This document shows, piece by piece, positions 17 through 49,656 of a DNA stretch of 64,000 nt. A model generated the notes under the pieces. The model was not told the origin of the DNA and did no database searches. It saw only the letters and a program-made list of their open reading frames with translations. Source of the stretch: Candidatus Neomicrothrix sp. GTDB taxonomy: Bacteria > Actinomycetota > Acidimicrobiia > Acidimicrobiales > Aldehydirespiratoraceae. A program made the position numbers and the translations under genes. Within the stretch, counting starts at the first letter, position 1; each line of letters starts with the position of its first letter. The stretch is taken from the NCBI GenBank assembly GCA_017852795.1, contig JAFMKU010000002.1, positions 9,221-73,220 on the forward strand. The letters run 5' to 3'.

Positions 17-601
17 ATGCCCCCCGACGAGGGTCAGGCGCTGTTCCGGGCTGCTTCCACGTTGTCGGTGGACGGACCGATGTTGGAGATCGGTAGCTAC
101 TGCGGCAAATCGGCGGTGTATCTCGGCGCGGCGGCGCAGGCCCAAAACCGACTGCTGTTCGCGCTTGACCACCATCGAGGCAGCGAAGAGAACCAGCAGG
201 GTTGGGAGCACCACGAACCCGATCTGGTTGATCCGGCAGTGAACCGACTCGACACCCTTCCGGTGTTTCGACGCACGATCCACGATGCCGGACTCGAAGG
301 CACGGTGGTTGCTCTGGTTGGCGACTCGCCGCAGATCGGTCGGGTTTGGCAAACCCCGCTGGCGTTGCTGTTCATCGACGGTGGGCACGGTCACGAACCG
401 GCACACCGGGACTATGAGATCTGGGTTCCGCATCTGACGATGGGAGCAACGCTGCTCATTCACGATGTGTTTCCTAACCCAGCCGACGGTGGTCGCCCGC
501 CGTACGAGATTTACTGCCGAGCCCTCGAATCGGGTGCGTTCGTCGAAGACGAGGCAACCGGTTCGTTGCGTCGACTCACTCGAGTTGCCGCCGGGATCTA
601 A
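17..601 (+). CDS. class I SAM-dependent methyltransferase (small O-methyltransferase-like, Methyltransf_24-type); probably 5'-truncated by the window edge
   Basis: ORF track 17..601. The frame stays open back to nt 2. Has LEIGSYCGKSAVYLG SAM-binding loop and LLFIDGGHGHE region. Confidence 0.7.
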   Translation: MPPDEGQALFRAASTLSVDGPMLEIGSYCGKSAVYLGAAAQAQNRLLFALDHHRGSEENQQGWEHHEPDLVDPAVNRLDTLPVFRRTIHDAGLEGTVVALVGDSPQIGRVWQTPLALLFIDGGHGHEPAHRDYEIWVPHLTMGATLLIHDVFPNPADGGRPPYEIYCRALESGAFVEDEATGSLRRLTRVAAGI

Positions 602-616
602 CCCGAAGCCCGGGAG

Positions 617-1696
617 TTAGTCGCCGATTCGAGATTCGGTTTCGGCCGGGTCGATGTCGATGATGGGCGGAAGGAAGCGATGGTCGGAGAACAGTCGGGC
701 CGCTGGGCTCGTTCCTTCCAACCCTTCGGCCGCGAGAACCACTGCGGCCGCGCTGTAGGTTGATCGCTCATCGGGGGGGAACAACGCACCGTCAGGGTGT
801 ACCTGACCGGTGATGTATCGGCCGTCGGGTTCGCGCAGGGCCTGAGCGGCGGCGAACAAGTCGCGGGCGGTTTGTTCACGGCCCACACTGAGGTAGGCCA
901 ACGCGCATTCGCAGGTTTCGGCCGCGGTCACCCACGGGCGGTCGTTGACGCAGCGGATTCCGTGATCATCGAGTTGAAACGCCGCGAGCCGGTCATCAAG
1001 GTGGGCTTCGCCGACGGCCCCACTCAACACGCCGGAGAGGACCGGGTAGTACCAGTCCATGGCCCACCGTCGTTTCGGAGAAAACGCTTCGTTGCGATGG
1101 TGACGGATGGCGTACGCCAATTGTCCGAGCGAAAGTTCCCAATCGGGTCGTTCCTGACCGAGTTCTTGGGCAATGGCGATAGCGCAGCGCAACGAGTGAG
1201 CGATCGACGATGAACCGGTGAGCAACGCGAACGGCCAAGGAGATCCGTCGGGGTGACGAGCCCAGAGAATCTCGCCTCGCGGTTGTTGGAGATCAAGCAC
1301 GAACTCGATGGCCCGATCCACGACTGGCCACATCGTTTCCAGAAAGCCTTGGTCGCGATATAGCAAGAAGTGATGCCAGGTTCCGGTCGCAAGGTAGGCG
1401 ATGACGTTGGCGTCGAGTTTGTCCTGTTCGACGCTGTTGGCCAGGTAGTACTGATGCCAGGAACCGTCGGGACGCTGGATGTCCACCAGCCACTGGTAGG
1501 CCGCTTCGGCGTCGGTTCGTCGTTCGCCGATAGCGAGCGCCATAGCTGCTTCGACATGGTTCCAAGGGTCGGCGTGCCCGCCCGGGAACCAGGGGATCAT
1601 CCCGTTCGGGAGCTGCCATTCGGCGATGCTGTCGGCGGTAAGCCGAATCTCGGCGGCGCTGATCAGTCCAGGAAGGTCAGGTGCCGACATGAGCAC
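617..1696 (-). CDS. prenyltransferase/squalene-oxidase repeat protein (terpenoid-cyclase-like alpha/alpha toroid)
   Basis: 359-aa ORF with repeated QW-like motifs (RPDGSW, HPDGSPW, EPDGRY, HPDGALF). No TM segment. Its 5' end overlaps the stop of the upstream methyltransferase gene by about 14-20 nt. Confidence 0.7.
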   Translation of the reverse strand: MLMSAPDLPGLISAAEIRLTADSIAEWQLPNGMIPWFPGGHADPWNHVEAAMALAIGERRTDAEAAYQWLVDIQRPDGSWHQYYLANSVEQDKLDANVIAYLATGTWHHFLLYRDQGFLETMWPVVDRAIEFVLDLQQPRGEILWARHPDGSPWPFALLTGSSSIAHSLRCAIAIAQELGQERPDWELSLGQLAYAIRHHRNEAFSPKRRWAMDWYYPVLSGVLSGAVGEAHLDDRLAAFQLDDHGIRCVNDRPWVTAAETCECALAYLSVGREQTARDLFAAAQALREPDGRYITGQVHPDGALFPPDERSTYSAAAVVLAAEGLEGTSPAARLFSDHRFLPPIIDIDPAETESRIGD

Positions 1697-2453
1697 GTCC
1701 TTTCGAGGATCCGGACCGTTCGGTACGCAACGGCGACTTCTGGGCCTGAACGATCAGGCTTTTGCCAAGCACCGGGTTGAGGAGTCGTTCGGCTGCGCGG
1801 GTGATCCAGGGGGCACTGACGATGTCCCATTCGAGCAGCTTGTGGTAGGTCCGTACGCTCCAGTTGTCTTCGATCGCGTTGTTGACCCCAACTTTGCAGC
1901 GAAGCCACCAGTACGGCGAATGCAGGGCATGGGCCCGGTAGGAGACCGTGGGGTCTAAACCAGCGCCTTGGAGTTTCTCCCGAAGCTCGGACTCGCGGTA
2001 GATCCGGACGTGTCCGCCTTGCGCCGCGGGGGCGTGATAGTCCGAACTGAGCTTCCAGCAGATTCGTTCCGGGAAGCGGGCCGGGATGGTGACCGCCAGC
2101 GTCCCACCAGGTTTGAGGACCCGAAAGAGTTCGTCGAGTGCCGCGGTGTCGTCAGGAATGTGCTCCATGACTTCGCTGGCGATGATCTTGTCAAAAGTGT
2201 TGTCGTCGAACGGCAGCTGGGTGGCGTCACCTTGAACTTGCTGGTGGAGGAGTTGCCCGTCGAACAAGCCGTCGGCGATCAACAACGGTGCAGTGTTGCG
2301 GATGGCTTCGAGTTCGGGTCGGGCCATGTCACAGCTCACGACTTTGGCTCCTCGAGCCAACGCCTCGTAGGTGTGGCGCCCGAAACCACAGCCGAGATCA
2401 AGCAGGAGATCTCCGGCCCGAAGGCCGAACCGGTCGTAGTCAACGGTGAGCAT
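1677..2453 (-). CDS. class I SAM-dependent methyltransferase (Methyltransf_11-like)
   Basis: Motif I LLDLGCGFGRH and post-I LKPGGTLAV. Its start at 2453 touches the GT4 stop. Confidence 0.82.
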   Translation of the reverse strand: MLTVDYDRFGLRAGDLLLDLGCGFGRHTYEALARGAKVVSCDMARPELEAIRNTAPLLIADGLFDGQLLHQQVQGDATQLPFDDNTFDKIIASEVMEHIPDDTAALDELFRVLKPGGTLAVTIPARFPERICWKLSSDYHAPAAQGGHVRIYRESELREKLQGAGLDPTVSYRAHALHSPYWWLRCKVGVNNAIEDNWSVRTYHKLLEWDIVSAPWITRAAERLLNPVLGKSLIVQAQKSPLRTERSGSSKGRAHVGT

Positions 2454-3721
2454 CAGCCGGCGCTTCCTTGATGGTGGTCAAGTACCGCCCGGTACTGCTC
2501 AACGGTGCGAAGCGCGGTGTGTCGCCACGACCAGTGATTGATGACCCGTTGGCGGCCCTGTTCTCCGACTTTGGCTCGAAGTTCAGGATGGTCGAGTGCT
2601 TCTCTGATGGTTCGGGCCAGCGCGTCGCTGTTTCCGGGTTCGGTCAGGAAGCAGGTTTCGCCGCTGATGCCGGCCACTTCAGGAAGGGCTCCACCGGTGG
2701 TTGCGACCAGCGGAATCCCGCACGACATGGCTTCGATCGCCGGTAGCGAGAAGCCTTCGTAAAGGGACGGAACCACGGCAAGTTCGGCTTCGCTGTACAA
2801 CTCCACGATGCGTTGGTCGGACACACCGCTCACGAAGTTGACGCAGTCGTCGAGTCCGAGTTCGGTCATGGTGCGACTGGCGTGACTGTCGGGGCGCCGT
2901 TTGCCGATGATGGTGAGTTCCATGTGGCGTTCGGTGCGGAGTTTGGCGACCGCTTCGAGCAGGTATTTGAGGCCTTTCATGGCCACGTCGGCGCTGGCGG
3001 TGGTGACGAGGTGGCCGGGGCGGCGTTCGATGCCAGGCACCGGCAGGAACAGTTCTGGGTCGACGCCGACCGGAACGACGTGGATTCGGTCCGGGTCAAC
3101 TCCGTGGTCGGCGGCGATGTCGGATTTGGATGATTCGGAGACCGACATGACACGGGGCATTCTGCGGGCCACCTGGGTCTGCATTTTGGTGAACGAATAC
3201 CAGCGGCGTTTCCCTAGCCGTTCCCGGAAGGTGCGAGCGTGTTCGAGTTCGAGGCGGCGGTCGACGGTGATCGGGTGATGGATCGTTTCGAGGATCGGCC
3301 AGCCTTCACGCTGGAGTTTGAGAATGCCCCAACCCAGCGTCTGGTTGTCGTGGATGAGATCGAACTCGTGGCGGCGGGGGCGGAGGTGGCGCCAGGCTCG
3401 GAGGCTGAACGCCATCGGTTCAGAAAAGGTGCCGGTGGAGAACGAGAGATGCTCAGCGGCGTCGATCCAGTCGTTCCATTCCCACAGGCGCGGCTTGCGC
3501 ATGGGGTGAGGATCGGCCCAGATCTCGAGGCTGGGGAGTTCGATCAGCGGGACCCGAGGGTCGAGTTCTGGGTAGGGCGGGCCGCCCAACACTTCGACGT
3601 GGTGTCCGAGGTCGACGAGCGCCTTGCTGAGGTGGCGAACGTAGACGCCTTGACCACCCACATGCGGTTTTCCGCGGTAGGTGAGGAGAGCGATTCGGAG
3701 AGATTCGGTGGTTTCGACCAT
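2453..3721 (-). CDS. glycosyltransferase family 4 (GT-B)
   Basis: ORF track runs to 3844, but homology begins at ATG 3721 (MVETTESLRIALLTYRGKPHVGGQGVYV). C-terminal E-x7-E region is EGFSLPAIEAMSCGIPLVATTGG. Confidence 0.85.
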   Translation of the reverse strand: MVETTESLRIALLTYRGKPHVGGQGVYVRHLSKALVDLGHHVEVLGGPPYPELDPRVPLIELPSLEIWADPHPMRKPRLWEWNDWIDAAEHLSFSTGTFSEPMAFSLRAWRHLRPRRHEFDLIHDNQTLGWGILKLQREGWPILETIHHPITVDRRLELEHARTFRERLGKRRWYSFTKMQTQVARRMPRVMSVSESSKSDIAADHGVDPDRIHVVPVGVDPELFLPVPGIERRPGHLVTTASADVAMKGLKYLLEAVAKLRTERHMELTIIGKRRPDSHASRTMTELGLDDCVNFVSGVSDQRIVELYSEAELAVVPSLYEGFSLPAIEAMSCGIPLVATTGGALPEVAGISGETCFLTEPGNSDALARTIREALDHPELRAKVGEQGRQRVINHWSWRHTALRTVEQYRAVLDHHQGSAG

Positions 3722-3865: not shown

Positions 3866-5347
3866 TTATGCCGGGAGCTGCGTTCTGCGCAGACGATGGC
3901 GCCAGGCCACGGCCAGCACGATGAGAGCCAAAGTGAGCGCCGGCCAGGCACCAAGGGCCACGGCCGGGGTTCGACCGGTTCGGAGCTCAACCGTGTCGTA
4001 GAGCACTGCGGTTTCACTCACCGCGGTTCGTTGCCGGACGGTTCCGTCGGGTTCGATCACCGCGGAGAACCCGGTAGGCGCGGCTTGAAGCACCCACCGT
4101 CCGGTCTCGACCGCCCGCAGTCGGCTGGACGCAATCTGTTGAGTTTGCACAACGGTTAGCCAGTAGCTCGACCCGTTGGTTGGGTTGAGGAGGAGTTGGC
4201 CTCCGTTACCGATCGCATCGCGAGCTCGGTGGTCAAAGAACACTTCCCAAGAGATCGCGACGCCGAGCGGCCCCACTGCGGTGTCAAGCACCGCCGGGGT
4301 GGTGCCGGGTCGCACGTCTCGGGCCGGGAGTAAATTGCTGAACTTCTCGATCAGCGAACGCAGCGGGACGTACTCGCCGAACGGCACCAACCGAACTTTT
4401 TCGTAGCGGTCGGTGATGGTCCCGTCGGGTGATTGTGCGATCGAATAGTTGCTGTTGCTGAGATCGTCGTCGTTTCGCCTGAACCATCCGCTCACCACCA
4501 CCGCGTCGAGGTTTTGGGCCAGTTCGGTGAGTCGGCTGGTGGCTTCGTCGAAGCTGAGAAGTTCCTGTTTGCAGTTGGCCGGTTCAAGAAGCGAGCCTGC
4601 CGCGGGATGGACGACATCTTCGGGCCAGAGCACGAGGTCTACGGGCCGGTCGATGGTTTGTGAGGCGGCCATGTGGCGTTCGAACACGTTGCGGTTCTCG
4701 CAGATTTTGGCCCGAGTGTTTTGTGGGCCACCACCTTGCACGACCGCCACGTCGAGGGTGCCGACCACGGTGGTAGTGGCCAGAGATGCTTGCCCGCTTA
4801 GGGATGCCACCAGCAAGACGGCGGCGATCCCGGCCGCTCGGCGGGCTTGACGTTCTCGCAGATCAGCAACACCCACCCCGGCTAGCCCGACCAGTCCGGC
4901 CAGCAACGGTGACCCGAACAGTCGAGCCGCTTCAGCCCACGGGGTGGACATCCCGATCATGGCGTAGCTGGCGATCGGTGTTCCCCCGAACGGGTAGTTC
5001 CAACGCACCATCTCGATCAGCATCAAGGCGGCAGGAAAGGCGATCCGTTGGGCCCACCGCCGCTCGGGTGGGGTCAACACGCCAACCGCTCCGGCGCACA
5101 GCGAAAACACCAGTACCGCGGCGGGCCATCCGGCGAGGCTGAAATCGGCCATCCAGATCGTGGCGGGCGCCGACCAGCCGAGTCCGACCAGCACCGAGAT
5201 GCGAAAACGGGTTCGGGTGGGTTGCCCGGTGAGCCGGCGGTACCAGATTGCCAGCCCGATCAGGCTGAGCGGCCACCAGCCCCAAGGCGGAAGGCCCGCG
5301 GTGATGAGCAGGCCAGGCCCGATCGAGGCGAGGATCCGTCGAATCAT
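3866..5347 (-). CDS. apolipoprotein N-acyltransferase (Lnt)-like membrane protein, CN-hydrolase domain; nucleophile position reads Ser
   Basis: N-terminal multi-TM region plus a nitrilase-type domain. LVLWPE aligns to E. coli Lnt E267 and YEKVRLVPFGEYVPL to K335. VAISWEVFF aligns to ICYE, where C387 is the nucleophile. A C-terminal TM is present. Start ATG overlaps the cyclase stop (ATGA). Confidence 0.75.
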   Translation of the reverse strand: MIRRILASIGPGLLITAGLPPWGWWPLSLIGLAIWYRRLTGQPTRTRFRISVLVGLGWSAPATIWMADFSLAGWPAAVLVFSLCAGAVGVLTPPERRWAQRIAFPAALMLIEMVRWNYPFGGTPIASYAMIGMSTPWAEAARLFGSPLLAGLVGLAGVGVADLRERQARRAAGIAAVLLVASLSGQASLATTTVVGTLDVAVVQGGGPQNTRAKICENRNVFERHMAASQTIDRPVDLVLWPEDVVHPAAGSLLEPANCKQELLSFDEATSRLTELAQNLDAVVVSGWFRRNDDDLSNSNYSIAQSPDGTITDRYEKVRLVPFGEYVPLRSLIEKFSNLLPARDVRPGTTPAVLDTAVGPLGVAISWEVFFDHRARDAIGNGGQLLLNPTNGSSYWLTVVQTQQIASSRLRAVETGRWVLQAAPTGFSAVIEPDGTVRQRTAVSETAVLYDTVELRTGRTPAVALGAWPALTLALIVLAVAWRHRLRRTQLPA

Positions 5348-6009
5348 GGAATGTCGAGTTGCAGGCGATGCACGCCGCCTACCGAACCCACTCCTTTGAT
5401 CCGCACAGCCACGTCACCGTCGGATCGCACCCAACCGGGAAGGTCTGCGAAGTCACAAACCGCCAACATTTCGCCGGGTTGAGCGGCGCTGCACAACTTG
5501 GCGGCAAGGTTGACCGGTTCGCCGATGTAGTCGTCGCCTTCGAACAGCAACGCGATTCCCGTAGCGATCCCGATACGCACCTCCATGGACGTGCCAGCGA
5601 AGTGGTGGATCAGGTGGGCGCCGGTAGCGATGGTCGGCGTTGGTTCAACCCCGACCAGCATGACCCCGTCCCCCAACCATTTGGCGACCCGAACCCCGCG
5701 CTTTGCCGCAATGTTTCGGGTGACCCGGCGGAACTCACCGAGTGCCTCAACCGCGGCGTGAGGGCCGAGGCTGCGGGTGTAGGCGGTGAACCCACTCAGG
5801 TCGGCAAAGCAGAAGGTTCGGGTGACGTTGAGGTGGGTGGCGTGGTCGTCGATGGTGGTCGGTGGGGCGACCTGATCGTGGCTGGCGGCCTCCGCCCATT
5901 CGCGGGCGGGACCGGTGTCGATGGCGACGAGTGGGATCAAGATCTCGCCGGTGGGTTCACCTACGGCGGCTGGTCCGTCGGCGTGTCGTCGGGACGTATC
6001 GTCGGTCAT
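5344..6009 (-). CDS. class III adenylate/guanylate cyclase, stand-alone catalytic domain
   Basis: FCFADLSGFTAYT (metal Asp), VAKWLGDGVMLV (Lys plus second metal Asp), RIGIATG, EPVNLAAKL. Confidence 0.8.
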   Translation of the reverse strand: MTDDTSRRHADGPAAVGEPTGEILIPLVAIDTGPAREWAEAASHDQVAPPTTIDDHATHLNVTRTFCFADLSGFTAYTRSLGPHAAVEALGEFRRVTRNIAAKRGVRVAKWLGDGVMLVGVEPTPTIATGAHLIHHFAGTSMEVRIGIATGIALLFEGDDYIGEPVNLAAKLCSAAQPGEMLAVCDFADLPGWVRSDGDVAVRIKGVGSVGGVHRLQLDIP

Positions 6010-6045: not shown

Positions 6046-6420
6046 TCAGACCCGTTTGCCGCAAACCGGCCAGGGCTGAGCTCCGCGTTCGCTCCAGAGG
6101 GCCCGAGCCATGGCGTCCTGCCACCAGGGTTCCACATCAACCGGGTCGCTTCCGATGAGCCACGGGTAGTGCCGGTTGGCTACACCATCCCAGGTCGGCT
6201 GGTTGAACTGGTAGGCGCCCCGGTAGGTGCCTGATGGGGAGACGGCCCGGTAGTTGTCGGTGGATTCGCAGATCCGTAGCCGGTGGAGTTCTTCATTGTT
6301 GAGTTCGTGCCGGGTTGGTTCGGTGATGTCAAGGAACCAGACAATCTGCTGTGGCGTACAGGCGGCTGAAACAACGGATAAACCGAATGCAATGGCAATG
6401 AGCCATGTTTTGTTCTTCAT
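6046..6420 (-). CDS. Rpf-like transglycosylase-domain lipoprotein
   Basis: Start moved to ATG 6420 (MKNKTWLIAIAFGLSVVSAAC, lipobox SAAC), preceded by SD GAGGAGGAAG. Domain motifs: LRICES (catalytic Glu), GAYQFNQPTWD, QPWPVCG. Confidence 0.8.
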   Translation of the reverse strand: MKNKTWLIAIAFGLSVVSAACTPQQIVWFLDITEPTRHELNNEELHRLRICESTDNYRAVSPSGTYRGAYQFNQPTWDGVANRHYPWLIGSDPVDVEPWWQDAMARALWSERGAQPWPVCGKRV

Positions 6421-9071: not shown

Positions 9072-10013
9072 CTATCGGGTGGCAAGAATGTGGCGTAGCG
9101 CCTCGCCGTCATGACCGGCCAACAATCGTTCGGCGGCCGAGCGGCCGGCCTGCGCGGCGGCGGAACGGGCCCGGTCGGCGTCGCTGGTGAGGAGTTCGAG
9201 TTCGTCGCGGCCAGGTTCGACCACGACCACCGGGGTGCCTTTGCTGCGGATCAGCGAAACTTCGTTGTCGAGCTTGTTGGAGAACCACGACCGTTCGGCG
9301 TCTCGACGCCAGCTTCGAGCCTCCGGTGTGGCGGTCTTTACCGACGACACGATGACCAGATCAAACCCGAGCATGGCGACCAGGTCGGCGTTGGTTGACG
9401 AATGCACCGCACCGTCGATGTAGCGGCGTTCACCAATCGAAACCGGCGTGTAGTAGGTGGGGATAGCGCTCGAAGACTGGACCGCCTGACCGGGTGACCC
9501 TTTGACGTCGTCACGGCCAAACACCACTCGTTTGCCGTCGTTGGACCGCACCGCCACGATCCACATGGGGGCGGTGGGCCACCGTCCTTCTAAGAGTTCG
9601 TCGATCCGGAGGCTCATGGCCGCACCAGATCGGTTCCCGGCGGGGAGCATTCCGAACGCAAGACGGATCGGGTCGGCCTCCCAAGGCGGCCAGACGGCCC
9701 GGGCCGACATGGCCAGCGCCGATGGTCGGCGGGGGCGCGGCCCGATCGGCTCGGCGTAGGGCGTGGTGATTCGATCCAAAATGGCTTGACCAGCCGGGGT
9801 CACCGTTCGGTTCGTGAAGCGTGCGTCGGCGTCGCTGGCGCTGAGTCCGGCCCGCAGAGTGCTCGCGGTGAACGAACCCGCCGAGGTGCCAACCAGCAGA
9901 TTGGCTGACGATGCGTCCCAACCGGTTGCTTCGGCAATGGCGGCCACCACGCCGCTATGCCAAGGGTCGCCTTTGGCCCCTCCCGCGCTGAACACCACTC
10001 CGACAGAAACCAT
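9072..10013 (-). CDS. patatin-like phospholipase
   Basis: Start moved to ATG 10013 (MVSVGVVFSAGGAKG). The upstream extension is Arg/Pro-rich and overlaps helD. Has GTSAG nucleophile elbow and YIDGAV catalytic Asp motif. Confidence 0.8.
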   Translation of the reverse strand: MVSVGVVFSAGGAKGDPWHSGVVAAIAEATGWDASSANLLVGTSAGSFTASTLRAGLSASDADARFTNRTVTPAGQAILDRITTPYAEPIGPRPRRPSALAMSARAVWPPWEADPIRLAFGMLPAGNRSGAAMSLRIDELLEGRWPTAPMWIVAVRSNDGKRVVFGRDDVKGSPGQAVQSSSAIPTYYTPVSIGERRYIDGAVHSSTNADLVAMLGFDLVIVSSVKTATPEARSWRRDAERSWFSNKLDNEVSLIRSKGTPVVVVEPGRDELELLTSDADRARSAAAQAGRSAAERLLAGHDGEALRHILATR

Positions 10014-10114
10014 GAGCGGCAGGCTAGCGACGTAGAAGTGGGCCTGACGCCTCCCGTATGGCCTTTCGGAGCGGGGCCGGTAGGATTTTCTCTCCCTTCG
10101 TTGAGGTTTTTGTC

Positions 10115-12175
10115 GTGTCTGAGCGCCATCCCGAACTCGATACCGAGCAGGCGTATCTGGATTGGGCCTACGCCTGCCTTGAAGATTCTCGCCAGCGGGC
10201 GGTTCGGGTAGCAAGCGGCCATCAACCTCAATCCGGAGGGACCGAACAGGCCCGTCTGGAACGAGAAATCGCGGTCGATGGTGCCGTCAACCGGCTGACC
10301 CAACTGGATTTGGGTGACCGGTCGTTGGTGTTCGGACGGATCGACCCGATTGGTGGGGTTGAACGGTTCTATATCGGTCGTGTTGCGGTCTGGGATCGTG
10401 ATCAGGACCCGGTGGTGGTCGACTGGCGGGCCCCTATTGCCGAACCCTTCTACCGCGCTACCGGCCGCGAACCGATGGGTTTGGAACGTCGTCGCCACTT
10501 TGCTTCTCGGGGCCGCACCCTGCTGGGTCTTGACGATGAGCTTTTCGGTGACCTGATCAACGAAGCCGTCGACGGTGAGGTTCGTGGTCAGGGTGCGTTG
10601 ATCGCGGCGATCGAAGCCTCCCGTTCGGGACGGTTGGGCGACATCGTTGCGACCATCCAAGGGGAACAAGACGAGATCATTCGAGCACCACTGCCGGGAG
10701 TGCTGCTGGTGCAGGGCGGACCAGGAACCGGCAAGACCGTGGTGGCGCTCCATCGTGCTGCCTACCTGCTCTATACCCATCGCTTTCCGTTGGAAGGCCA
10801 AGGGGTGCTGGTCATCGGGCCGAACCGTCTTTTCCTCGCCTACATCGAGCAGGTTCTTCCCTCGCTGGGTGAAGCGGGCGTCGAGATCGCGGTACTCGGC
10901 GATCTGCTCCGACCCCGGGTTGCTGTCGATGGTCTCGATGAAGAGCCGATCGCCGCAGTGAAAGGCGACCTGCGCATCACTGAAGTGTTGGCTCGGGCGG
11001 TGCGGGATCGCCAGCGCCCGCTGCGGGAAGATTTCTCGGTCGGTTTCGGCGTGTTTCGGCTTCGGTTGACCGTTGAGGAGTCGGCGGCGATCATCACCGA
11101 GGCCCGGCGGCGGGCTCGGCGCCATAATGCGGGTCGCCGAATCGTGGAGGAATTGGTGTTTTCGCGCCTGGCGGCCAGCGCTCGTCGCCCGGTGGAACCC
11201 CAAGCGGTTCGTGAGCAACTTCGCGGCGAGTTGGCGATCCGTGAGTTGTTGGAGTGGATGTGGCCGGTGTTGACCCCGGCCCACCTTCTGCATGACCTTT
11301 TCGGTTCTCGGGCGCTGCTTCGGTCGGCCAATCGCGGGACCTTCAGCGAGGGCGAACTGGCGCAGTTGCATCGTCCCCGTTCGGTCCATGCCGACGAGGT
11401 GGTCTGGTCGTTTCACGATGTGCCGTTGCTTGACGAGGCTCGGGCGTTGTTAGGGGCCCGACCGGGCCGCCGTGACGTCGACGAGGTGCGCACCTACGGT
11501 CACATCTGCATTGACGAAGCGCAGGACCTTTCCCCGATGGAGCTGCGGATGGCGGTGCGGCGATCGCTGAACGGTTCGATGACCGTGGTCGGAGATATTG
11601 CTCAGGCCACCGGGGCGTGGGCTAACGCCGGTTGGGACCAGGTCATCGCTGAGCTTCCGGACCGCCGCGGAGTTTCCCGCCGTGAACTGACGGTGGGGTA
11701 TCGCATTCCGGGTCCGGCGATGGATCTGGCCAATCGGGTGCTGCCGTTCGCGGCGCCAGGGCTACGGCCCTCCCTGCCAGTTCGTCTCGATGGCGACCCA
11801 CCGCGGATTGTTCCGCTGCGTGACGTGGGGACGGAGTTGGTGGATCTTGCCTTGGAGGAACGAGCGGCGGTCGGGGAAGGCAACGTCGCGATCGTGGTGG
11901 CCGGCTCCATGTTCCGCGAGACGCTCGCGGCGTTTGCTGACCGCGGCGTACCGGTTGGTGGACCCAGTCGCCATGGGCTTGATCAGTCGATCACGGTTGT
12001 TCCGGTGTCGTTGGTCAAAGGGCTCGAGGTTGACGCCGTGGTGGTCCTAGAACCGGCCCGGATCCTTGCCGAAGGTTCACAGGGGGTTCGCTCGCTCTAT
12101 GTCGCCTTGACCCGGTCAACGAAGCGGGTCGCGGTCGCCCATCAGGAACCACTTCCGGAAATGTTGATCCCGTGA
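10115..12175 (+). CDS. helD: HelD-type UvrD-like ATPase (RNA polymerase recycling factor)
   Basis: Walker A QGGPGTGKT, motif II IDEAQDLSP, and an actinobacterial HelD-like N-terminus. ORF opens at 10058; GTG 10115 has GAGG 8 nt upstream and is preferred. Confidence 0.8.
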   Translation: MSERHPELDTEQAYLDWAYACLEDSRQRAVRVASGHQPQSGGTEQARLEREIAVDGAVNRLTQLDLGDRSLVFGRIDPIGGVERFYIGRVAVWDRDQDPVVVDWRAPIAEPFYRATGREPMGLERRRHFASRGRTLLGLDDELFGDLINEAVDGEVRGQGALIAAIEASRSGRLGDIVATIQGEQDEIIRAPLPGVLLVQGGPGTGKTVVALHRAAYLLYTHRFPLEGQGVLVIGPNRLFLAYIEQVLPSLGEAGVEIAVLGDLLRPRVAVDGLDEEPIAAVKGDLRITEVLARAVRDRQRPLREDFSVGFGVFRLRLTVEESAAIITEARRRARRHNAGRRIVEELVFSRLAASARRPVEPQAVREQLRGELAIRELLEWMWPVLTPAHLLHDLFGSRALLRSANRGTFSEGELAQLHRPRSVHADEVVWSFHDVPLLDEARALLGARPGRRDVDEVRTYGHICIDEAQDLSPMELRMAVRRSLNGSMTVVGDIAQATGAWANAGWDQVIAELPDRRGVSRRELTVGYRIPGPAMDLANRVLPFAAPGLRPSLPVRLDGDPPRIVPLRDVGTELVDLALEERAAVGEGNVAIVVAGSMFRETLAAFADRGVPVGGPSRHGLDQSITVVPVSLVKGLEVDAVVVLEPARILAEGSQGVRSLYVALTRSTKRVAVAHQEPLPEMLIP

Positions 12176-14299: not shown

Positions 14300-15322
14300 A
14301 TGAGACTTCTTCGTACTGTTGGTTTGGCGCTTGTAGTTGCCGTCCTTGGAACGGTTGTGGTGTCCTGCGGGGACGGTGGTTCAGGTGACGGTTCGTCACT
14401 CACCGTGTACTCGGGTCGGACCGAAGACTTGATTGGCCCGCTGCTTGAACAGTTCAGTAACGAGACCGGTATTGACGTTGAGGTTCGGTACGGCGATTCG
14501 GCAGAGCTGGCGCTGCTTTTGCAGACCGAAGGTTCGAGTTCTCCCGCCGACGTCTTCATTTCGCAGAGCCCGGGAGCGTTGGGTTTGCTCGCCGGCGAAG
14601 GGATGCTGGCGGAGCTCCCCGATGACCTCACTGGTCGAGTTTCCGAAGGCTTTGCCGGTTCGGATCACACCTGGGTTGGCATCACCGGTCGAGTCCGGGT
14701 GCTGGTTTACAACAAGGATCTCGTCGATCCGGCCGACCTTCCCCAGACGGTGCTGGATCTGGCCAAGGATGCCTACTCGGGTCGGGTAGCGGTGGCTCCC
14801 ACCAACGGATCGTTCCAAGATTTTGTTACCGCCATGCGAAGCGAACTCGGCGATCAGGTCACGGTCGAATGGTTGGAAGGGTTGGCAGCCAACCAATCTC
14901 CGAACTACCCCAAGAACTCGGCGATTGTGGAAGCGGTTGCTCGTGGCGAGGTAGAGATGGGTCTGGTCAACCACTACTACAACCTGCGAGCGTTGGAAGC
15001 CGACCCGGCGCTGGCGTCGGTCAACTACTTCTTTCCGGCCGATGATGTTGGCTCGCTGGTGATCGTCACGGGTGGCTCGGTGCTGGCCTCGAGCGATAGC
15101 CAGTCGGCCGGTGAACAGTTGCTGGCGTGGTTGTTGTCTGAAGACGTGCAGGCCACGTTCGTTACCGAAACGCAGGAGTACTCGTTGCTTCCGGGTGCTG
15201 GCCGTCCTGAGGGTGTGCCGGAGCTGAGTGGTTTTGCTGCCGACACCATCGACTACGATGTGCTCGGTGGGGGACTCACCGCGACCATCGAAATCATCAG
15301 GGAAAGCGGTATCGAGCGCTAG
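14300..15322 (+). CDS. Fe(III)-type ABC transporter substrate-binding lipoprotein (FbpA/AfuA-like)
   Basis: Start moved to ATG 14300 (MRLLRTVGLALVVAVLGTVVVSCG, lipobox). LTVYSGRTEDLIGPLLEQFSNETGIDVEV is typical of FbpA-family proteins. Confidence 0.85.
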   Translation: MRLLRTVGLALVVAVLGTVVVSCGDGGSGDGSSLTVYSGRTEDLIGPLLEQFSNETGIDVEVRYGDSAELALLLQTEGSSSPADVFISQSPGALGLLAGEGMLAELPDDLTGRVSEGFAGSDHTWVGITGRVRVLVYNKDLVDPADLPQTVLDLAKDAYSGRVAVAPTNGSFQDFVTAMRSELGDQVTVEWLEGLAANQSPNYPKNSAIVEAVARGEVEMGLVNHYYNLRALEADPALASVNYFFPADDVGSLVIVTGGSVLASSDSQSAGEQLLAWLLSEDVQATFVTETQEYSLLPGAGRPEGVPELSGFAADTIDYDVLGGGLTATIEIIRESGIER

Positions 15323-48393: not shown

Positions 48394-49656
48394 ATGCCCT
48401 CGTCTCTTGGTTCCTCGGTTAGTCGTCGTCTCCGGTTGCTTGTCGTTGCGTTGCTGTGCTCCGCGGTGGTGCTCGTAGGGGCCTGTGGTGGTGGCGGCGA
48501 TGACCCCGCCGAAGACGAGTCGGAAACGTCAGCGGAGTCGACGACCTCAACCACCTCCAAGGCTCCGGAACCTGAACTGCCGCCGGGACCGCCAACCACT
48601 CGCGGACCGGCCCCCGAGTTGGTCGTTGAACCGATCGGCTCGATGGGGTCGATCACGGTTATCGCCGGTGATCCGATCTACCACGGTGTGCTCGGTCAAC
48701 TCGCAACCGACCGAAACGTCGTCGCGGCGGCTGCGCTTCCTCCCGCCCCAGTCGCGAACGGTGTTTCCCCGCTGACCGGTCTACCGCTGGCCGATCCGTC
48801 GGTTGCGAGTCGCCCTGCGATCGTGGCCAAGGTTGACAACACCAACAAAGGCCGTCCGCAGGCGGCGCTGAGCATGGCCGACATCGTGTACGTGACCGAA
48901 ATCGAAGGGGGCAGCACGCGGCTGGCTGTGGTGTTCCATTCGCAAACTCCCGGCGAGATCGGTCCGATCCGCTCCGGTCGAACCACCGATCTGACCGTCA
49001 CCGGCTCGTTGAACTCACCGATTTTCATCTGGTCGGGTGGCAACTCGGTGCATCGCGAACTTCTGCGCCGGTCTCCGCTGGTTGACTTGGGAGCGCTTCG
49101 TCGCAACGAGTACTACCGGGCGCCGGGTCGTCCCGGCACCTACGACCTGATGACCTCCGCACCTGAAATGTGGCAGATCGCAGCCGAGGCCAACGATGGT
49201 GGCGCCCCTCCCACGCATTTTGAGTTCCGTACCGACAAAGTCACGCTTCCACCGAGCGCCACCCCGGTAGCTACCGCGTCGCTGAACTATCCGAGTGCTT
49301 CGGCTAGTTGGAGTTGGGATGCTGCGGCTCGGGTGTTCCGCCGCACCCAAAGCGACAAGGTGTACGTCGACGACGCGGGGGTGCAGATCGGTGCCGCCAA
49401 CGTGCTGATCGCCGAAGTGCCGTCGGTGTTCACCGGCATGATCGACTCAGCCGGCACTCGGGTCGACGAGCAGTTGTTTGTTGGATCGGGACGAGGTTGG
49501 GTCCTCTCCGACGGTCACAAGATTGAGGTGACCTGGACCAAACCTTCGTTGGGTTCGGTGGCGACCTGGACGACCGCCGATGGCATCCCGGTTGCGATGC
49601 TGCCGGGGCAGACCTGGATTGAACTGATCGGCGCGGACCGGACGACGTTCGGGTAG
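48394..49656 (+). CDS. DUF3048-family lipoprotein
   Basis: Start moved to ATG 48394 (lipobox LVGACGG). PLTGLPL...RPAIVAKVDN...GGSTRLAVVF...IRSGRTTD is typical of DUF3048 (YerB-like) proteins. Confidence 0.75.
   Translation: MPSSLGSSVSRRLRLLVVALLCSAVVLVGACGGGGDDPAEDESETSAESTTSTTSKAPEPELPPGPPTTRGPAPELVVEPIGSMGSITVIAGDPIYHGVLGQLATDRNVVAAAALPPAPVANGVSPLTGLPLADPSVASRPAIVAKVDNTNKGRPQAALSMADIVYVTEIEGGSTRLAVVFHSQTPGEIGPIRSGRTTDLTVTGSLNSPIFIWSGGNSVHRELLRRSPLVDLGALRRNEYYRAPGRPGTYDLMTSAPEMWQIAAEANDGGAPPTHFEFRTDKVTLPPSATPVATASLNYPSASASWSWDAAARVFRRTQSDKVYVDDAGVQIGAANVLIAEVPSVFTGMIDSAGTRVDEQLFVGSGRGWVLSDGHKIEVTWTKPSLGSVATWTTADGIPVAMLPGQTWIELIGADRTTFG

What the first reader, a model, noticed from the sequence alone, without database searches (positions are those of the whole stretch)
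3866..5347. Lnt homolog whose catalytic Cys position reads Ser
Seen: the CN-hydrolase domain aligns by eye to E. coli Lnt. LVLWPE matches the Glu267 region and YEKVRLVPFGEYVPL the Lys335 region. The ICYE nucleophile motif (Cys387) reads ISWE, giving Ser366 (codon TCT at 4250..4252, one substitution from TGT). Established: Lnt uses an E-K-C triad and a thioester acyl-enzyme, and as I recall, Cys-to-Ser variants of E. coli Lnt are defective. Inference: this may be a Ser-nucleophile (oxyester) N-acyltransferase, a protein with a different acyl-transfer role, or an inactive paralog. The window encodes at least three lipobox proteins (6420, 14300, 48394) as potential substrates.
Basis: partly seen in the sequence, partly recalled or inferred. 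Interest (0 to 1): 0.55.

Follow-up and report, generated by a model that had tools for sequence, protein, structure and literature searches.

The report
Order-wide serine-nucleophile Lnt acyltransferase
The gene encodes a full-length lipoprotein N-acyltransferase (Lnt) homolog whose catalytic cysteine is a serine, and this is the conserved state across a whole bacterial order (Acidimicrobiales) rather than a sequencing error, so it may be a natural serine-based version of an enzyme family defined by a cysteine.

Summary
ORF 3866..5347(-) is a 493-aa Lnt-family protein: it scores above the TIGR00546 cutoff, has LNT_N plus CN_hydrolase domains, and its AF2 model matches E. coli Lnt at TM about 0.8. 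Ser366 (TCT, 4250..4252) aligns with Cys387, and Glu267, Lys335, Glu343 and Glu389 are all kept.

It is not an error. All 120 closest homologs have Ser, as do 143 of 151 sequences in the 50%-identity representative alignment. All 30 Acidimicrobiales genome loci have Ser, encoded by six different Ser codons.

The Ser clade is monophyletic and sister to actinobacterial Cys-type Lnts. It carries co-conserved active-site-shell changes (QGGG, PTN, PTG, loss of Trp148). A few nested lineages have Cys on the Ser-type scaffold, so the two residues interchange as a nucleophile would.

Four complete or near-complete Acidimicrobiales chromosomes showed no second Lnt, so this is probably the only copy.

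The best reading is an active Lnt that forms an oxyester acyl-enzyme. Its acceptor, most likely lipoproteins, is unproven.

The known precedent is mycobacterial BCG_2279c (Ser, uncharacterised), which has a different residue signature.

The adjacent glycosyltransferase belongs to a methylmannose-polysaccharide cluster and is probably unrelated.

Verdict: a new variant of a known kind, of moderate to high interest.

The parts
3866..5347 (-). Ser-type Lnt gene (493 aa, stop codon included).
   Evidence: ORF. TIGR00546 scores 185.8 bits against a cutoff of 132.9. Full-length fold match to Lnt structures, TM 0.76-0.82.
4880..5314 (-). LNT_N polytopic membrane domain (aa 12-156).
   Evidence: PF20154, E 3e-14. 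The AF2 model is helical through about aa 190.
3980..4750 (-). CN-hydrolase (nitrilase-like) catalytic domain (aa 200-456).
   Evidence: PF00795, E 1.4e-24.
4250..4252 (-). Codon TCT = Ser366, at the position of the nucleophile Cys387 of E. coli Lnt.
   Evidence: The column is invariant in the 45-sequence alignment A1.
4619..4621 (-). Glu243, equivalent to the general base Glu267.
   Evidence: Invariant in A1 and 100% conserved in both Ser-type and Cys-type sets.
4397..4399 (-). Lys317, equivalent to Lys335.
   Evidence: Invariant.
4373..4375 (-). Glu325, equivalent to Glu343, the fourth member of the catalytic tetrad.
   Evidence: Invariant.
4244..4249 (-). Trp367-Glu368, equivalent to Tyr388-Glu389.
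   Evidence: Glu is invariant. Position 367 is W, Y or F across the clade.
4727..4732 (-). Gly206-Gly207 of the 'VQGGG' motif. This is a Ser-clade-specific shell change; Cys-type actinobacterial Lnts have 'QGND'.
   Evidence: 99% and 98% Gly in the Ser type, against N 86% and D 62% in the Cys type.
4073..4078 (-). Pro424-Thr425 of the 'APTG' motif. This is a Ser-clade-specific shell change; the Cys type has I-S.
4973..4975 (-). Ile125 at the position of E. coli Trp148. The position is 100% Trp in Cys-type actinobacterial Lnts and L, M or I in the Ser clade.
5344..6009 (-). Upstream cyclase-homology-domain gene whose stop overlaps the Lnt start by 4 nt (ATGA). It is context only. It is conserved only in close relatives.
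   Evidence: PF00211, E 9.5e-6. Present in L001-L004 and absent from more distant loci.

Best explanation
This is the Lnt of an Acidimicrobiales bacterium. It is a membrane acyltransferase with an outward-facing nitrilase-type domain in which Ser366 has replaced the usual Cys as nucleophile.

The proposed mechanism follows the known ping-pong scheme of Lnt:
- Glu243, with Lys317 and Glu325, activates Ser366.
- Ser366 attacks the sn-1 ester of a membrane phospholipid and forms an oxyester acyl-enzyme in place of the usual thioester.
- The acyl chain then passes to an amine acceptor, most likely the alpha-amino group of the diacylglyceryl-cysteine of lipoproteins.

Shown here:
- Family membership and fold.
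- Ser at the nucleophile position.
- Order-wide conservation of the Ser together with the rest of the tetrad.
- A co-conserved, remodelled active-site shell.
- Occasional Ser-to-Cys exchange on the same scaffold.

Inferred:
- That the enzyme is catalytically active.
- That the intermediate is an oxyester.
- That the acceptor is still the lipoprotein N-terminus.
For: (1) It is a full Lnt by sequence and fold.

(2) Ser is fixed: 120/120 close homologs, 143 of 151 sequences in the 50%-identity representative alignment down to about 30% identity, and 30/30 genome loci from Acidimicrobiales, Ilumatobacteraceae, Acidimicrobiaceae, Ca. Aldehydirespirator, Ca. Poriferisodalis and Sva0996. Six synonymous Ser codons are used. 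This is long-term purifying selection for Ser.

(3) The Glu267, Lys335, Glu343 and Glu389 equivalents are invariant in the clade. A dead enzyme would not be expected to keep them.

(4) Positions next to the catalytic residues are changed relative to Cys-type actinobacterial Lnts and then conserved: QGGG, E-[DN]-V-V, K-V-x-R, S-[YWF]-E-V-F-F, P-T-N, P-T-G. This looks like retuning and not decay.

(5) Cys reappears in at least three or four small lineages nested in the Ser clade that keep the Ser-type shell: P0243/P0398/P0399, P0403 and P0194. P0243 also sits at the Ser-type syntenic position. Ser and Cys interchange as expected only if the position acts as the nucleophile.

(6) E. coli C387S still forms an acyl-enzyme (PMC3850990, citing earlier work) and has low activity (PMC10313180). 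The first half-reaction is therefore feasible with Ser even on an untuned scaffold.

(7) It is probably the only Lnt in these genomes. The four complete or near-complete chromosomes hit in the genome scan (OZ241894.1, NZ_OZ241968.1, CBDBZP010000005.1, CAVSET010000006.1) each gave one locus only. The scan pattern matches 66% of Acidimicrobiia Cys-type Lnts. The scan returned 30 Ser-type loci against at most 3 possible Acidimicrobiia Cys-type loci. No contig lengths are shared between the Ser and Cys hit lists.

(8) Candidate substrates exist: three lipobox proteins lie in the window.
Against: - No biochemical data exist for any member of the clade.
- In E. coli the Cys-to-Ser change nearly abolishes activity.
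- The mycobacterial Ser-type homolog BCG_2279c could not N-acylate four lipoproteins (PMC3850990).
- Trp148 and Phe146, which are conserved in Cys-type actinobacterial Lnts, are lost in the Ser clade. This may signal a different acceptor.
- The gene sits at a different locus (hemE-hemY side) from the ancestral actinobacterial Lnt position (tatC-helY...Lnt...gcvP). That ancestral position is still used by Cys-type Lnts of MAGs labelled 'Acidimicrobiia bacterium' and of Nanopelagicales. The Ser type could therefore be an old paralog.
Confidence: 0.5

Rival explanations
1. The enzyme is an active Ser-nucleophile acyltransferase or acyl hydrolase with a different acceptor. [quoted passage not shown] Candidates are another envelope lipid or glycolipid, a different protein N-terminus (as the Lnt paralog AatD does with glycine), or water (phospholipase A1-like).
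For: - The arguments for catalytic competence are the same as for the best explanation.
- Trp148 and Phe146 in the L1 lid of the membrane domain, and several cavity positions, differ systematically from Cys-type Lnts (structural role in PMC5500888).
- The locus differs from the ancestral Lnt locus.
- BCG_2279c, another Ser-type homolog, does not act on four tested lipoproteins (PMC3850990).
- Lnt-family paralogs with other acceptors are known (bioRxiv 10.1101/2020.09.23.310854, also held as PMC7943197).
Against: - No conserved partner gene points to another substrate.
- The adjacent GT4, methyltransferase and hydrolase genes are a cytoplasmic methylmannose-polysaccharide cluster (PMC9883506). 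That cluster is missing from many Ser-type loci.
- If this is the only Lnt homolog, and lipoproteins are triacylated as in other Actinomycetota, something must N-acylate them.
Confidence: 0.3
2. The protein is a catalytically dead pseudoenzyme kept for a structural or scaffolding role, for example organising envelope biosynthetic enzymes. This is the suggestion made for BCG_2279c.
For: - E. coli C387S is almost inactive (PMC10313180, PMC3850990).
- The Lnt protein diverges faster than its neighbours: 59% identity against 75-87% for flanking genes between the window and L001.
Against: - Ser and all four other catalytic residues are invariant over a clade reaching down to about 30% identity.
- The nucleophile position takes only Ser or, rarely, Cys among the full-length sequences.
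- The active-site shell residues are newly fixed and not relaxed.
Confidence: 0.12
3. The Ser is a sequencing or assembly error, or the gene is a decaying pseudogene.
For: TCT is one substitution away from TGT.
Against: - The ORF is intact and full length.
- An identical protein is on record with four member sequences on two contigs.
- Ser is present in hundreds of independent assemblies and is encoded by six different codons.
Confidence: 0.01

Closest known systems
Canonical apolipoprotein N-acyltransferase Lnt (E. coli, P. aeruginosa; actinobacterial MSMEG_3860, Rv2051c/BCG_2070c)
   Same: - Eight-helix membrane domain plus extracytoplasmic nitrilase-like domain, with a full-length fold match at TM about 0.8.
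- Scores above the TIGR00546 cutoff.
- The Glu267, Lys335, Glu343 and Glu389 equivalents are conserved.
- Trp after the nucleophile, as in the functional M. tuberculosis Lnt (Table S1 of PMC3850990).
   Different: - The nucleophile is Ser and not Cys.
- Trp148 and Phe146 are lost.
- QGGG, PTN and PTG shell motifs replace the Cys-type residues.
- The genomic position is different.
- It is neither fused nor adjacent to a Ppm1-type GT2 in the window.
BCG_2279c / Rv2262c-Rv2261c, the second Lnt homolog of the M. tuberculosis complex
   Same: It is an actinobacterial Lnt homolog with Cys387 replaced by Ser and with Glu267, Lys335, Glu343 and Glu389 kept. Its function is unknown (PMC3850990).
   Different: - BCG_2279c co-exists with a functional Cys-type Lnt and does not replace it.
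- Its residue signature differs: Pro266 to Gly, Trp74 to Phe, Trp148 kept, Tyr249 to Thr. The Ser clade here has Pro (96%), Trp (93%), Leu/Met/Ile and His at these positions.
- The change in BCG_2279c is therefore probably independent.
Engineered E. coli / P. aeruginosa Lnt C387S (PDB 5vrh, 8b0m)
   Same: The same E-K-E-S active-site chemistry. It is the best PDB sequence hit.
   Different: It is a laboratory mutant with low or undetectable activity on a Cys-tuned scaffold (PMC10313180, PMC3850990). The natural clade carries about ten co-conserved shell substitutions.
AatD-type Lnt paralogs (glycine N-acyltransferase of the Aat system)
   Same: An Lnt-family protein with a possibly non-canonical acceptor.
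   Different: There are no Aat-type neighbours. The comparison is by analogy only and was not tested by alignment (one search lists the papers).

Membership tests
Lnt (TIGR00546; PF20154 + PF00795) | Whole-protein score above the curated equivalog cutoff. | tested here: met
   185.8 bits against a cutoff of 132.9.
Lnt (TIGR00546; PF20154 + PF00795) | N-terminal polytopic membrane domain followed by a CN-hydrolase domain, with the Lnt fold over the full length. | tested here: met
   PF20154 covers aa 12-156 and PF00795 covers aa 200-456. The AF2 model has pLDDT 87. Foldseek gives TM 0.76-0.82 to 24 Lnt chains.
Lnt (TIGR00546; PF20154 + PF00795) | Catalytic Glu267-Lys335-Cys387 triad, plus Glu343. 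| tested here: not met
   Glu243, Lys317 and Glu325 are present. The Cys position is Ser366.
Lnt (TIGR00546; PF20154 + PF00795) | Other residues essential in E. coli: Trp237, Tyr388, Glu389, Trp148, Phe146. | tested here: inconclusive
   Glu389 is kept. Tyr388 is Trp, as in the functional M. tuberculosis Lnt. The Trp237 loop is absent in all actinobacterial Lnts. Trp148 and Phe146 are lost only in the Ser clade.
Lnt (TIGR00546; PF20154 + PF00795) | [quoted passage not shown] | not testable with these tools
   This needs lipoprotein mass spectrometry, complementation or an in vitro assay.
Nitrilase (CN-hydrolase) superfamily | Invariant Glu-Lys-Cys catalytic triad with a thioacyl intermediate. 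| tested here: not met
   The fold and the Glu and Lys residues are met. Cys is replaced by Ser throughout the clade.
BCG_2279c-like second Lnt homologs of mycobacteria | Ser at the nucleophile position. | tested here: met
BCG_2279c-like second Lnt homologs of mycobacteria | The same residue signature at the 23 E. coli-essential positions, which would indicate orthology. | tested here: not met
   They differ at the Trp74, Trp148, Tyr249 and Pro266 equivalents. This is an indirect comparison from a published table.
BCG_2279c-like second Lnt homologs of mycobacteria | Co-occurs as an extra copy beside a functional Cys-type Lnt. | tested here: inconclusive
   No second Lnt locus was returned for four complete or near-complete Acidimicrobiales chromosomes. 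No contigs are shared between the Ser and Cys hit lists. The window has only one Lnt. Whole genomes could not be searched.

The most novel reading that the evidence does not exclude
The Acidimicrobiales Lnt clade would be the first natural serine-nucleophile branch of the nitrilase superfamily. It would be an order-wide enzyme working through an oxyester acyl-enzyme on a retuned active site, as the sole lipoprotein N-acyltransferase of these bacteria. It shows that Cys and Ser can be exchanged in both directions on this fold.
Probability: 0.45. Interest if true: 0.72.

Novelty: new variant of a known kind. Interest (0 to 1): 0.6.

Why it matters
The nitrilase superfamily, Lnt included, is defined by a Glu-Lys-Cys triad and a thioester intermediate. 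Cys-to-Ser mutants are the standard 'dead or nearly dead' controls. A whole bacterial order that has fixed Ser, keeps every other catalytic residue and occasionally flips back to Cys offers three things.

- It is a natural experiment on how this fold can be retuned for an oxyester intermediate. The candidate compensating positions are already listed here.
- It makes a specific question testable: are lipoproteins of Acidimicrobiales triacylated, and by this enzyme?
- It flags an annotation problem. The equivalog model TIGR00546 matches these proteins above its cutoff, and source annotations name them 'apolipoprotein N-acyltransferase', although the defining nucleophile is missing.

It also puts the unexplained mycobacterial BCG_2279c in a wider setting, because Cys-to-Ser replacement in actinobacterial Lnt homologs appears to have happened more than once.

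Tried and rejected
1. Sequencing error or pseudogene. Rejected, because Ser is clade-wide and encoded by six codons.

2. A functional operon with the downstream GT4 glycosyltransferase (glycolipid or lipoglycan acylation). Rejected as the main reading. The downstream genes are a complete methylmannose-polysaccharide cluster: MmpH matches 7qsj at E 5e-102 and MeT1 matches 6g7d at E 4e-61 (PMC9883506). That product is cytoplasmic. The cluster is absent from many Ser-type loci, where Lnt directly abuts GtrA and 4HBT_3. The equally conserved hemE-hemY neighbours show that synteny in this order is not evidence of function.

3. Orthology with BCG_2279c. Its sequence could not be obtained, because the supplements hold only legends and a residue table. 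The table argues against orthology.

4. A direct co-occurrence test for a Cys-type Lnt in the same genomes.
- Whole genomes cannot be fetched.
- I also searched the window with the thyX-DUF4193-Lnt(Cys) neighbourhood genes; only the Lnt query hit, and it hit the Ser-type gene.
- All results were negative for a second copy, but they are not exhaustive.

5. Domain fusions as functional hints. An LMW phosphatase and a DUF998 were each seen in a single representative cluster (50%-identity representatives). They are too sporadic to interpret.

6. Cluster-member look-up for taxonomy. It gave no organism names.

7. Literature searches for a described natural Ser-type Lnt clade, or for Acidimicrobiia Lnt, found only PMC3850990. 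PMC3100165 (Buddelmeijer & Young 2010) is not held.

8. One MAFFT run timed out and was repeated with faster settings.
Full report
**The observation**

The minus-strand ORF 3866..5347 encodes 493 aa.
- It matches Pfam LNT_N (aa 12-156) and CN_hydrolase (aa 200-456).
- It scores 185.8 bits on the NCBIfam equivalog TIGR00546 'lnt', above the 132.9 cutoff.
- phmmer against the PDB aligns it over its whole length with E. coli and P. aeruginosa Lnt. The best hit is the engineered C387S mutant 5vrh, because 'GVAISWEVFF' lies over 'TAAICYEIIL'.
- Codon 366 is TCT at 4250..4252.
- The equivalents of Glu267, Lys335, Glu343 and Glu389 are Glu243, Lys317, Glu325 and Glu368.
- An AlphaFold2 model built on 62 homologs (pLDDT 87, pTM 0.89) matches 24 Lnt chains over the full length, with TM 0.76-0.82. 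It matches soluble nitrilases only over the C-terminal domain.

**Not an error, and not a singleton**

- All 120 closest database homologs (52-100% identity, from MAGs named Acidimicrobiales or Actinomycetota) have Ser at this column.
- A search of 1.84 billion 50%-identity representatives found 337 clusters at E <= 1e-30. In the 151-sequence alignment of the best 150 representatives plus the window protein, 143 have Ser and 3 have Cys. The other five are mostly fragments lacking the column.
- In a 45-sequence alignment reaching down to 29% identity, Ser366, Glu243, Lys317, Glu325 and Glu368 are invariant.
- A scan of one genome per GTDB species returned 80 loci. The 27 loci with E <= 1e-57 come from assemblies mostly labelled Acidimicrobiales, Ilumatobacteraceae, Acidimicrobiaceae, Ca. 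Aldehydirespirator, Ca. Poriferisodalis or Sva0996. With three loci fetched earlier, that makes 30 Ser-type loci, and all 30 have Ser.
- Every locus from other taxa has Cys. These include Nocardioides, Streptomyces, Amycolatopsis, Nanopelagicales, proteobacteria and Omnitrophota.
- The Ser codons in these loci are TCC (15), TCG (10), TCT (2), TCA (1), AGT (1) and AGC (1). The codon has turned over repeatedly while the amino acid stayed.

**Place in the family**

A neighbour-joining tree puts the Ser-bearing proteins in one clade, sister to the Cys-type Lnts of other Actinomycetota. The tree is rough and is not a maximum-likelihood analysis.

Comparing 105 Ser-type with 37 actinobacterial Cys-type sequences shows changes beyond the nucleophile that are themselves conserved in the Ser clade:

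| Position (E. coli numbering) | Ser clade | Cys-type actinobacterial Lnts |
|---|---|---|
| 228-231 | Q-G-G-G | Q-G-N-D |
| After the general base (267) | E-[DN]-V-V | E-S-[SA]-L |
| After the lysine (335) | K-V-x-R | K-[RQ]-H-L |
| Nucleophile region (387) | S-[YWF]-E-V-F-F | C-F-E-S-A-F |
| 410-413 | P-T-N-[AG] | S-T-N-N |
| 445-446 | P-T | I-S |
| Trp148 | Leu, Met or Ile | 100% Trp |
| Phe146 | Val, Leu or Thr | Phe |

This pattern is a remodelled, selected active-site shell. It is not relaxed constraint.

**Ser and Cys interchange on this scaffold**

A few lineages nested inside the Ser clade carry Cys.
- P0243 has two further 90%-identity clusters, at 88% and 74% identity, from independent samples. 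P0403 and P0194 are also Cys-bearing.
- These proteins keep the Ser-type shell: VQGGG, PFGGxP[LV], C-Y-E-x-F-F and, where it could be read, PTG.
- P0243 sits at the Ser-type syntenic position, next to GtrA, 4HBT_3, citrate synthase and GNAT genes as in L087.
- Among 120 relatives of P0243, 116 have Ser and 4 have Cys.

Among full-length sequences the position accepts only Ser or Cys. That is what is expected of a nucleophile and not of a vestigial residue.

**Is it the only Lnt?**

A separate Cys-type Lnt family exists in MAGs labelled 'Acidimicrobiia bacterium'; all 120 listed relatives of L033 have Cys. That family lies at another locus, tatC-helY...thyX-DUF4193-Lnt-hyp-GNAT...gcvP-MerR. Parts of this context recur around the Cys-type Lnt of a Nanopelagicales MAG, so it looks like the ancestral actinobacterial position. 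The Ser type lies after hemE-hemY instead.

I could not search whole genomes. The indirect evidence is as follows.
- The window has one Lnt only.
- The four complete or near-complete chromosomes in the genome scan each returned a single locus. The scan pattern matches 66% of the Cys-type family and 85% of the Ser type.
- The scan returned 30 Ser-type loci against at most three possible Acidimicrobiia Cys-type loci.
- No contig length is shared between the Ser-type and Cys-type hit lists, which include about 25 contigs longer than 0.4 Mb.
- Source names partition cleanly: Ser-type hits are labelled 'Acidimicrobiales' and Cys-type hits 'Acidimicrobiia bacterium'.

I read this as 'probably the sole Lnt homolog in Acidimicrobiales'. 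My confidence in that is about 0.7.

**Surroundings**

The gene upstream (5344..6009) encodes a cyclase-homology-domain protein. Its stop overlaps the Lnt start codon by 4 nt. It is found only in close relatives.

Downstream lies a complete four-gene methylmannose-polysaccharide cluster of the kind described in mycobacteria (PMC9883506):
- a ManT-like GT4 (2453..3721);
- a pMeT3-like methyltransferase (1677..2453);
- MmpH (617..1696; PDB 7qsj, E 4.6e-102);
- MeT1 (17..601, plus strand; PDB 6g7d/6g80/6h40, E 4.3e-61).

MMP is a cytoplasmic polysaccharide. The cluster is present beside the Ser-type Lnt in roughly 60% of loci and missing in others, where Lnt directly abuts GtrA and an acyl-CoA thioesterase gene. 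I therefore treat it as a neighbour and not a partner. The almost universal hemE-hemY neighbours show that conserved synteny in this order does not imply shared function.

**Mechanism**

The established Lnt scheme is as follows (PMC8048626, PMC5500890). Glu267 deprotonates Cys387. Cys387 attacks the sn-1 ester of a phospholipid. Lys335 and the oxyanion hole stabilise the tetrahedral intermediate. The thioacyl-enzyme is then resolved by the alpha-amine of the diacylglyceryl-cysteine.

For the Ser clade I infer the same ping-pong route through an acyl-O-Ser366 ester. Two published facts make this plausible:
- E. coli C387S still forms an acyl-enzyme (PMC3850990, citing Vidal-Ingigliardi 2007 and Buddelmeijer & Young 2010).
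- The same mutant retains low activity (PMC10313180).

From general enzymology, aminolysis of Ser acyl-enzymes is routine, for example in transpeptidases. This point is my own knowledge and was not tested here.

The acceptor cannot be shown here. Lipoproteins are the default. Three lipobox proteins lie in the window, and there is probably no other Lnt. The loss of Trp148 and Phe146 and the separate locus keep a different acceptor open.

**Comparison with what is known**

The only described natural Ser variant I found is BCG_2279c (Rv2262c/2261c). It is a second mycobacterial Lnt homolog that co-exists with the functional Cys-type BCG_2070c and could not N-acylate four lipoproteins (PMC3850990).

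Its published residue table is Trp74 to Phe, Trp148 kept, Tyr249 to Thr and Pro266 to Gly. This differs from the Ser-clade signature of Trp, Leu/Met/Ile, His and Pro. The two Ser replacements are therefore probably independent. I could not align the sequence itself.

No paper in the library describes the Acidimicrobiales clade.

**Verdict**

This is an order-wide, selected Cys-to-Ser variant of Lnt and is most likely an active enzyme. It is a new variant of a known kind.

My confidence is about 0.8 that it is catalytically active with Ser as nucleophile. It is about 0.5 for the full statement that it is the lipoprotein N-acyltransferase of these organisms.

Noticed in passing
window 17..3721: A complete four-gene methylmannose-polysaccharide (MMP) cluster in the mycobacterial arrangement. 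It comprises MeT1 (17..601 +; PDB 6g7d, E 4e-61), MmpH (617..1696 -; PDB 7qsj, E 5e-102), a pMeT3-like methyltransferase (1677..2453 -) and a ManT-like GT4 (2453..3721 -). It suggests that Acidimicrobiales make MMP-like polymethylated polysaccharides, so far studied in mycobacteria and Streptomyces.
   Followed up: partly
window 5344..6009 (-): A small cyclase-homology-domain protein (PF00211, E 9.5e-6) whose stop overlaps the Lnt start codon (ATGA). It is conserved at 63-75% identity only in the closest relatives (L001-L004).
   Followed up: partly
P0243/P0398/P0399, P0403, P0194; locus L089 810..2627: Small lineages inside the Ser clade carry Cys at the nucleophile position while keeping the Ser-type shell motifs. 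P0243 lies at the Ser-type syntenic position. P0140 is a further Cys-bearing singleton in a different context (PNT transhydrogenase, creatininase neighbours; L088).
   Followed up: partly
L084 10001..11539, L085 10001..11551, L033 4079..5680: A separate Cys-type Lnt family occurs in MAGs labelled 'Acidimicrobiia bacterium'. It lies in a tatC-helY...thyX-DUF4193-Lnt-hyp-GNAT...gcvP-MerR neighbourhood that is partly shared with Nanopelagicales (L030). This is likely the ancestral actinobacterial Lnt locus.
   Followed up: partly
L016 (labelled Bifidobacterium breve MAG) and L017 (labelled Acidobacteria bacterium): Both carry the Acidimicrobiales-type hemE-hemY-Lnt(Ser)-MMP locus, with 46-63% identity to the window genes. 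They are probably mis-binned or mislabelled contigs.
   Followed up: no
P0235 (L086 8001..10202), P0225: Ser-type Lnt is fused C-terminally to a low-molecular-weight phosphotyrosine phosphatase domain (P0235, inside a large glycosyltransferase/EPS cluster) or to DUF998 (P0225).
   Followed up: no
window 6046..6420 (-), 14300..15322 (+), 48394..49656 (+): Three predicted lipoproteins with lipoboxes VSAAC, VVSC and VGAC. They are an Rpf-like transglycosylase, an ABC solute-binding protein and a 420-aa protein. They are possible Lnt substrates.
   Followed up: partly
window 4700..4702 and 4571..4573 (Cys216, Cys259 of the Lnt): Two cysteines in the extracytoplasmic domain are invariant among the 62 close homologs (alignment A2) but not across the whole clade. 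The protein is therefore not simply Cys-depleted. A disulfide is possible but was not checked.
   Followed up: no
window 9072..10214 (-): A patatin-like phospholipase gene is conserved in the same syntenic block (UvrD-patatin-hemE-hemY-...-Lnt) in L001 and L003. No link to Lnt was examined.
   Followed up: no
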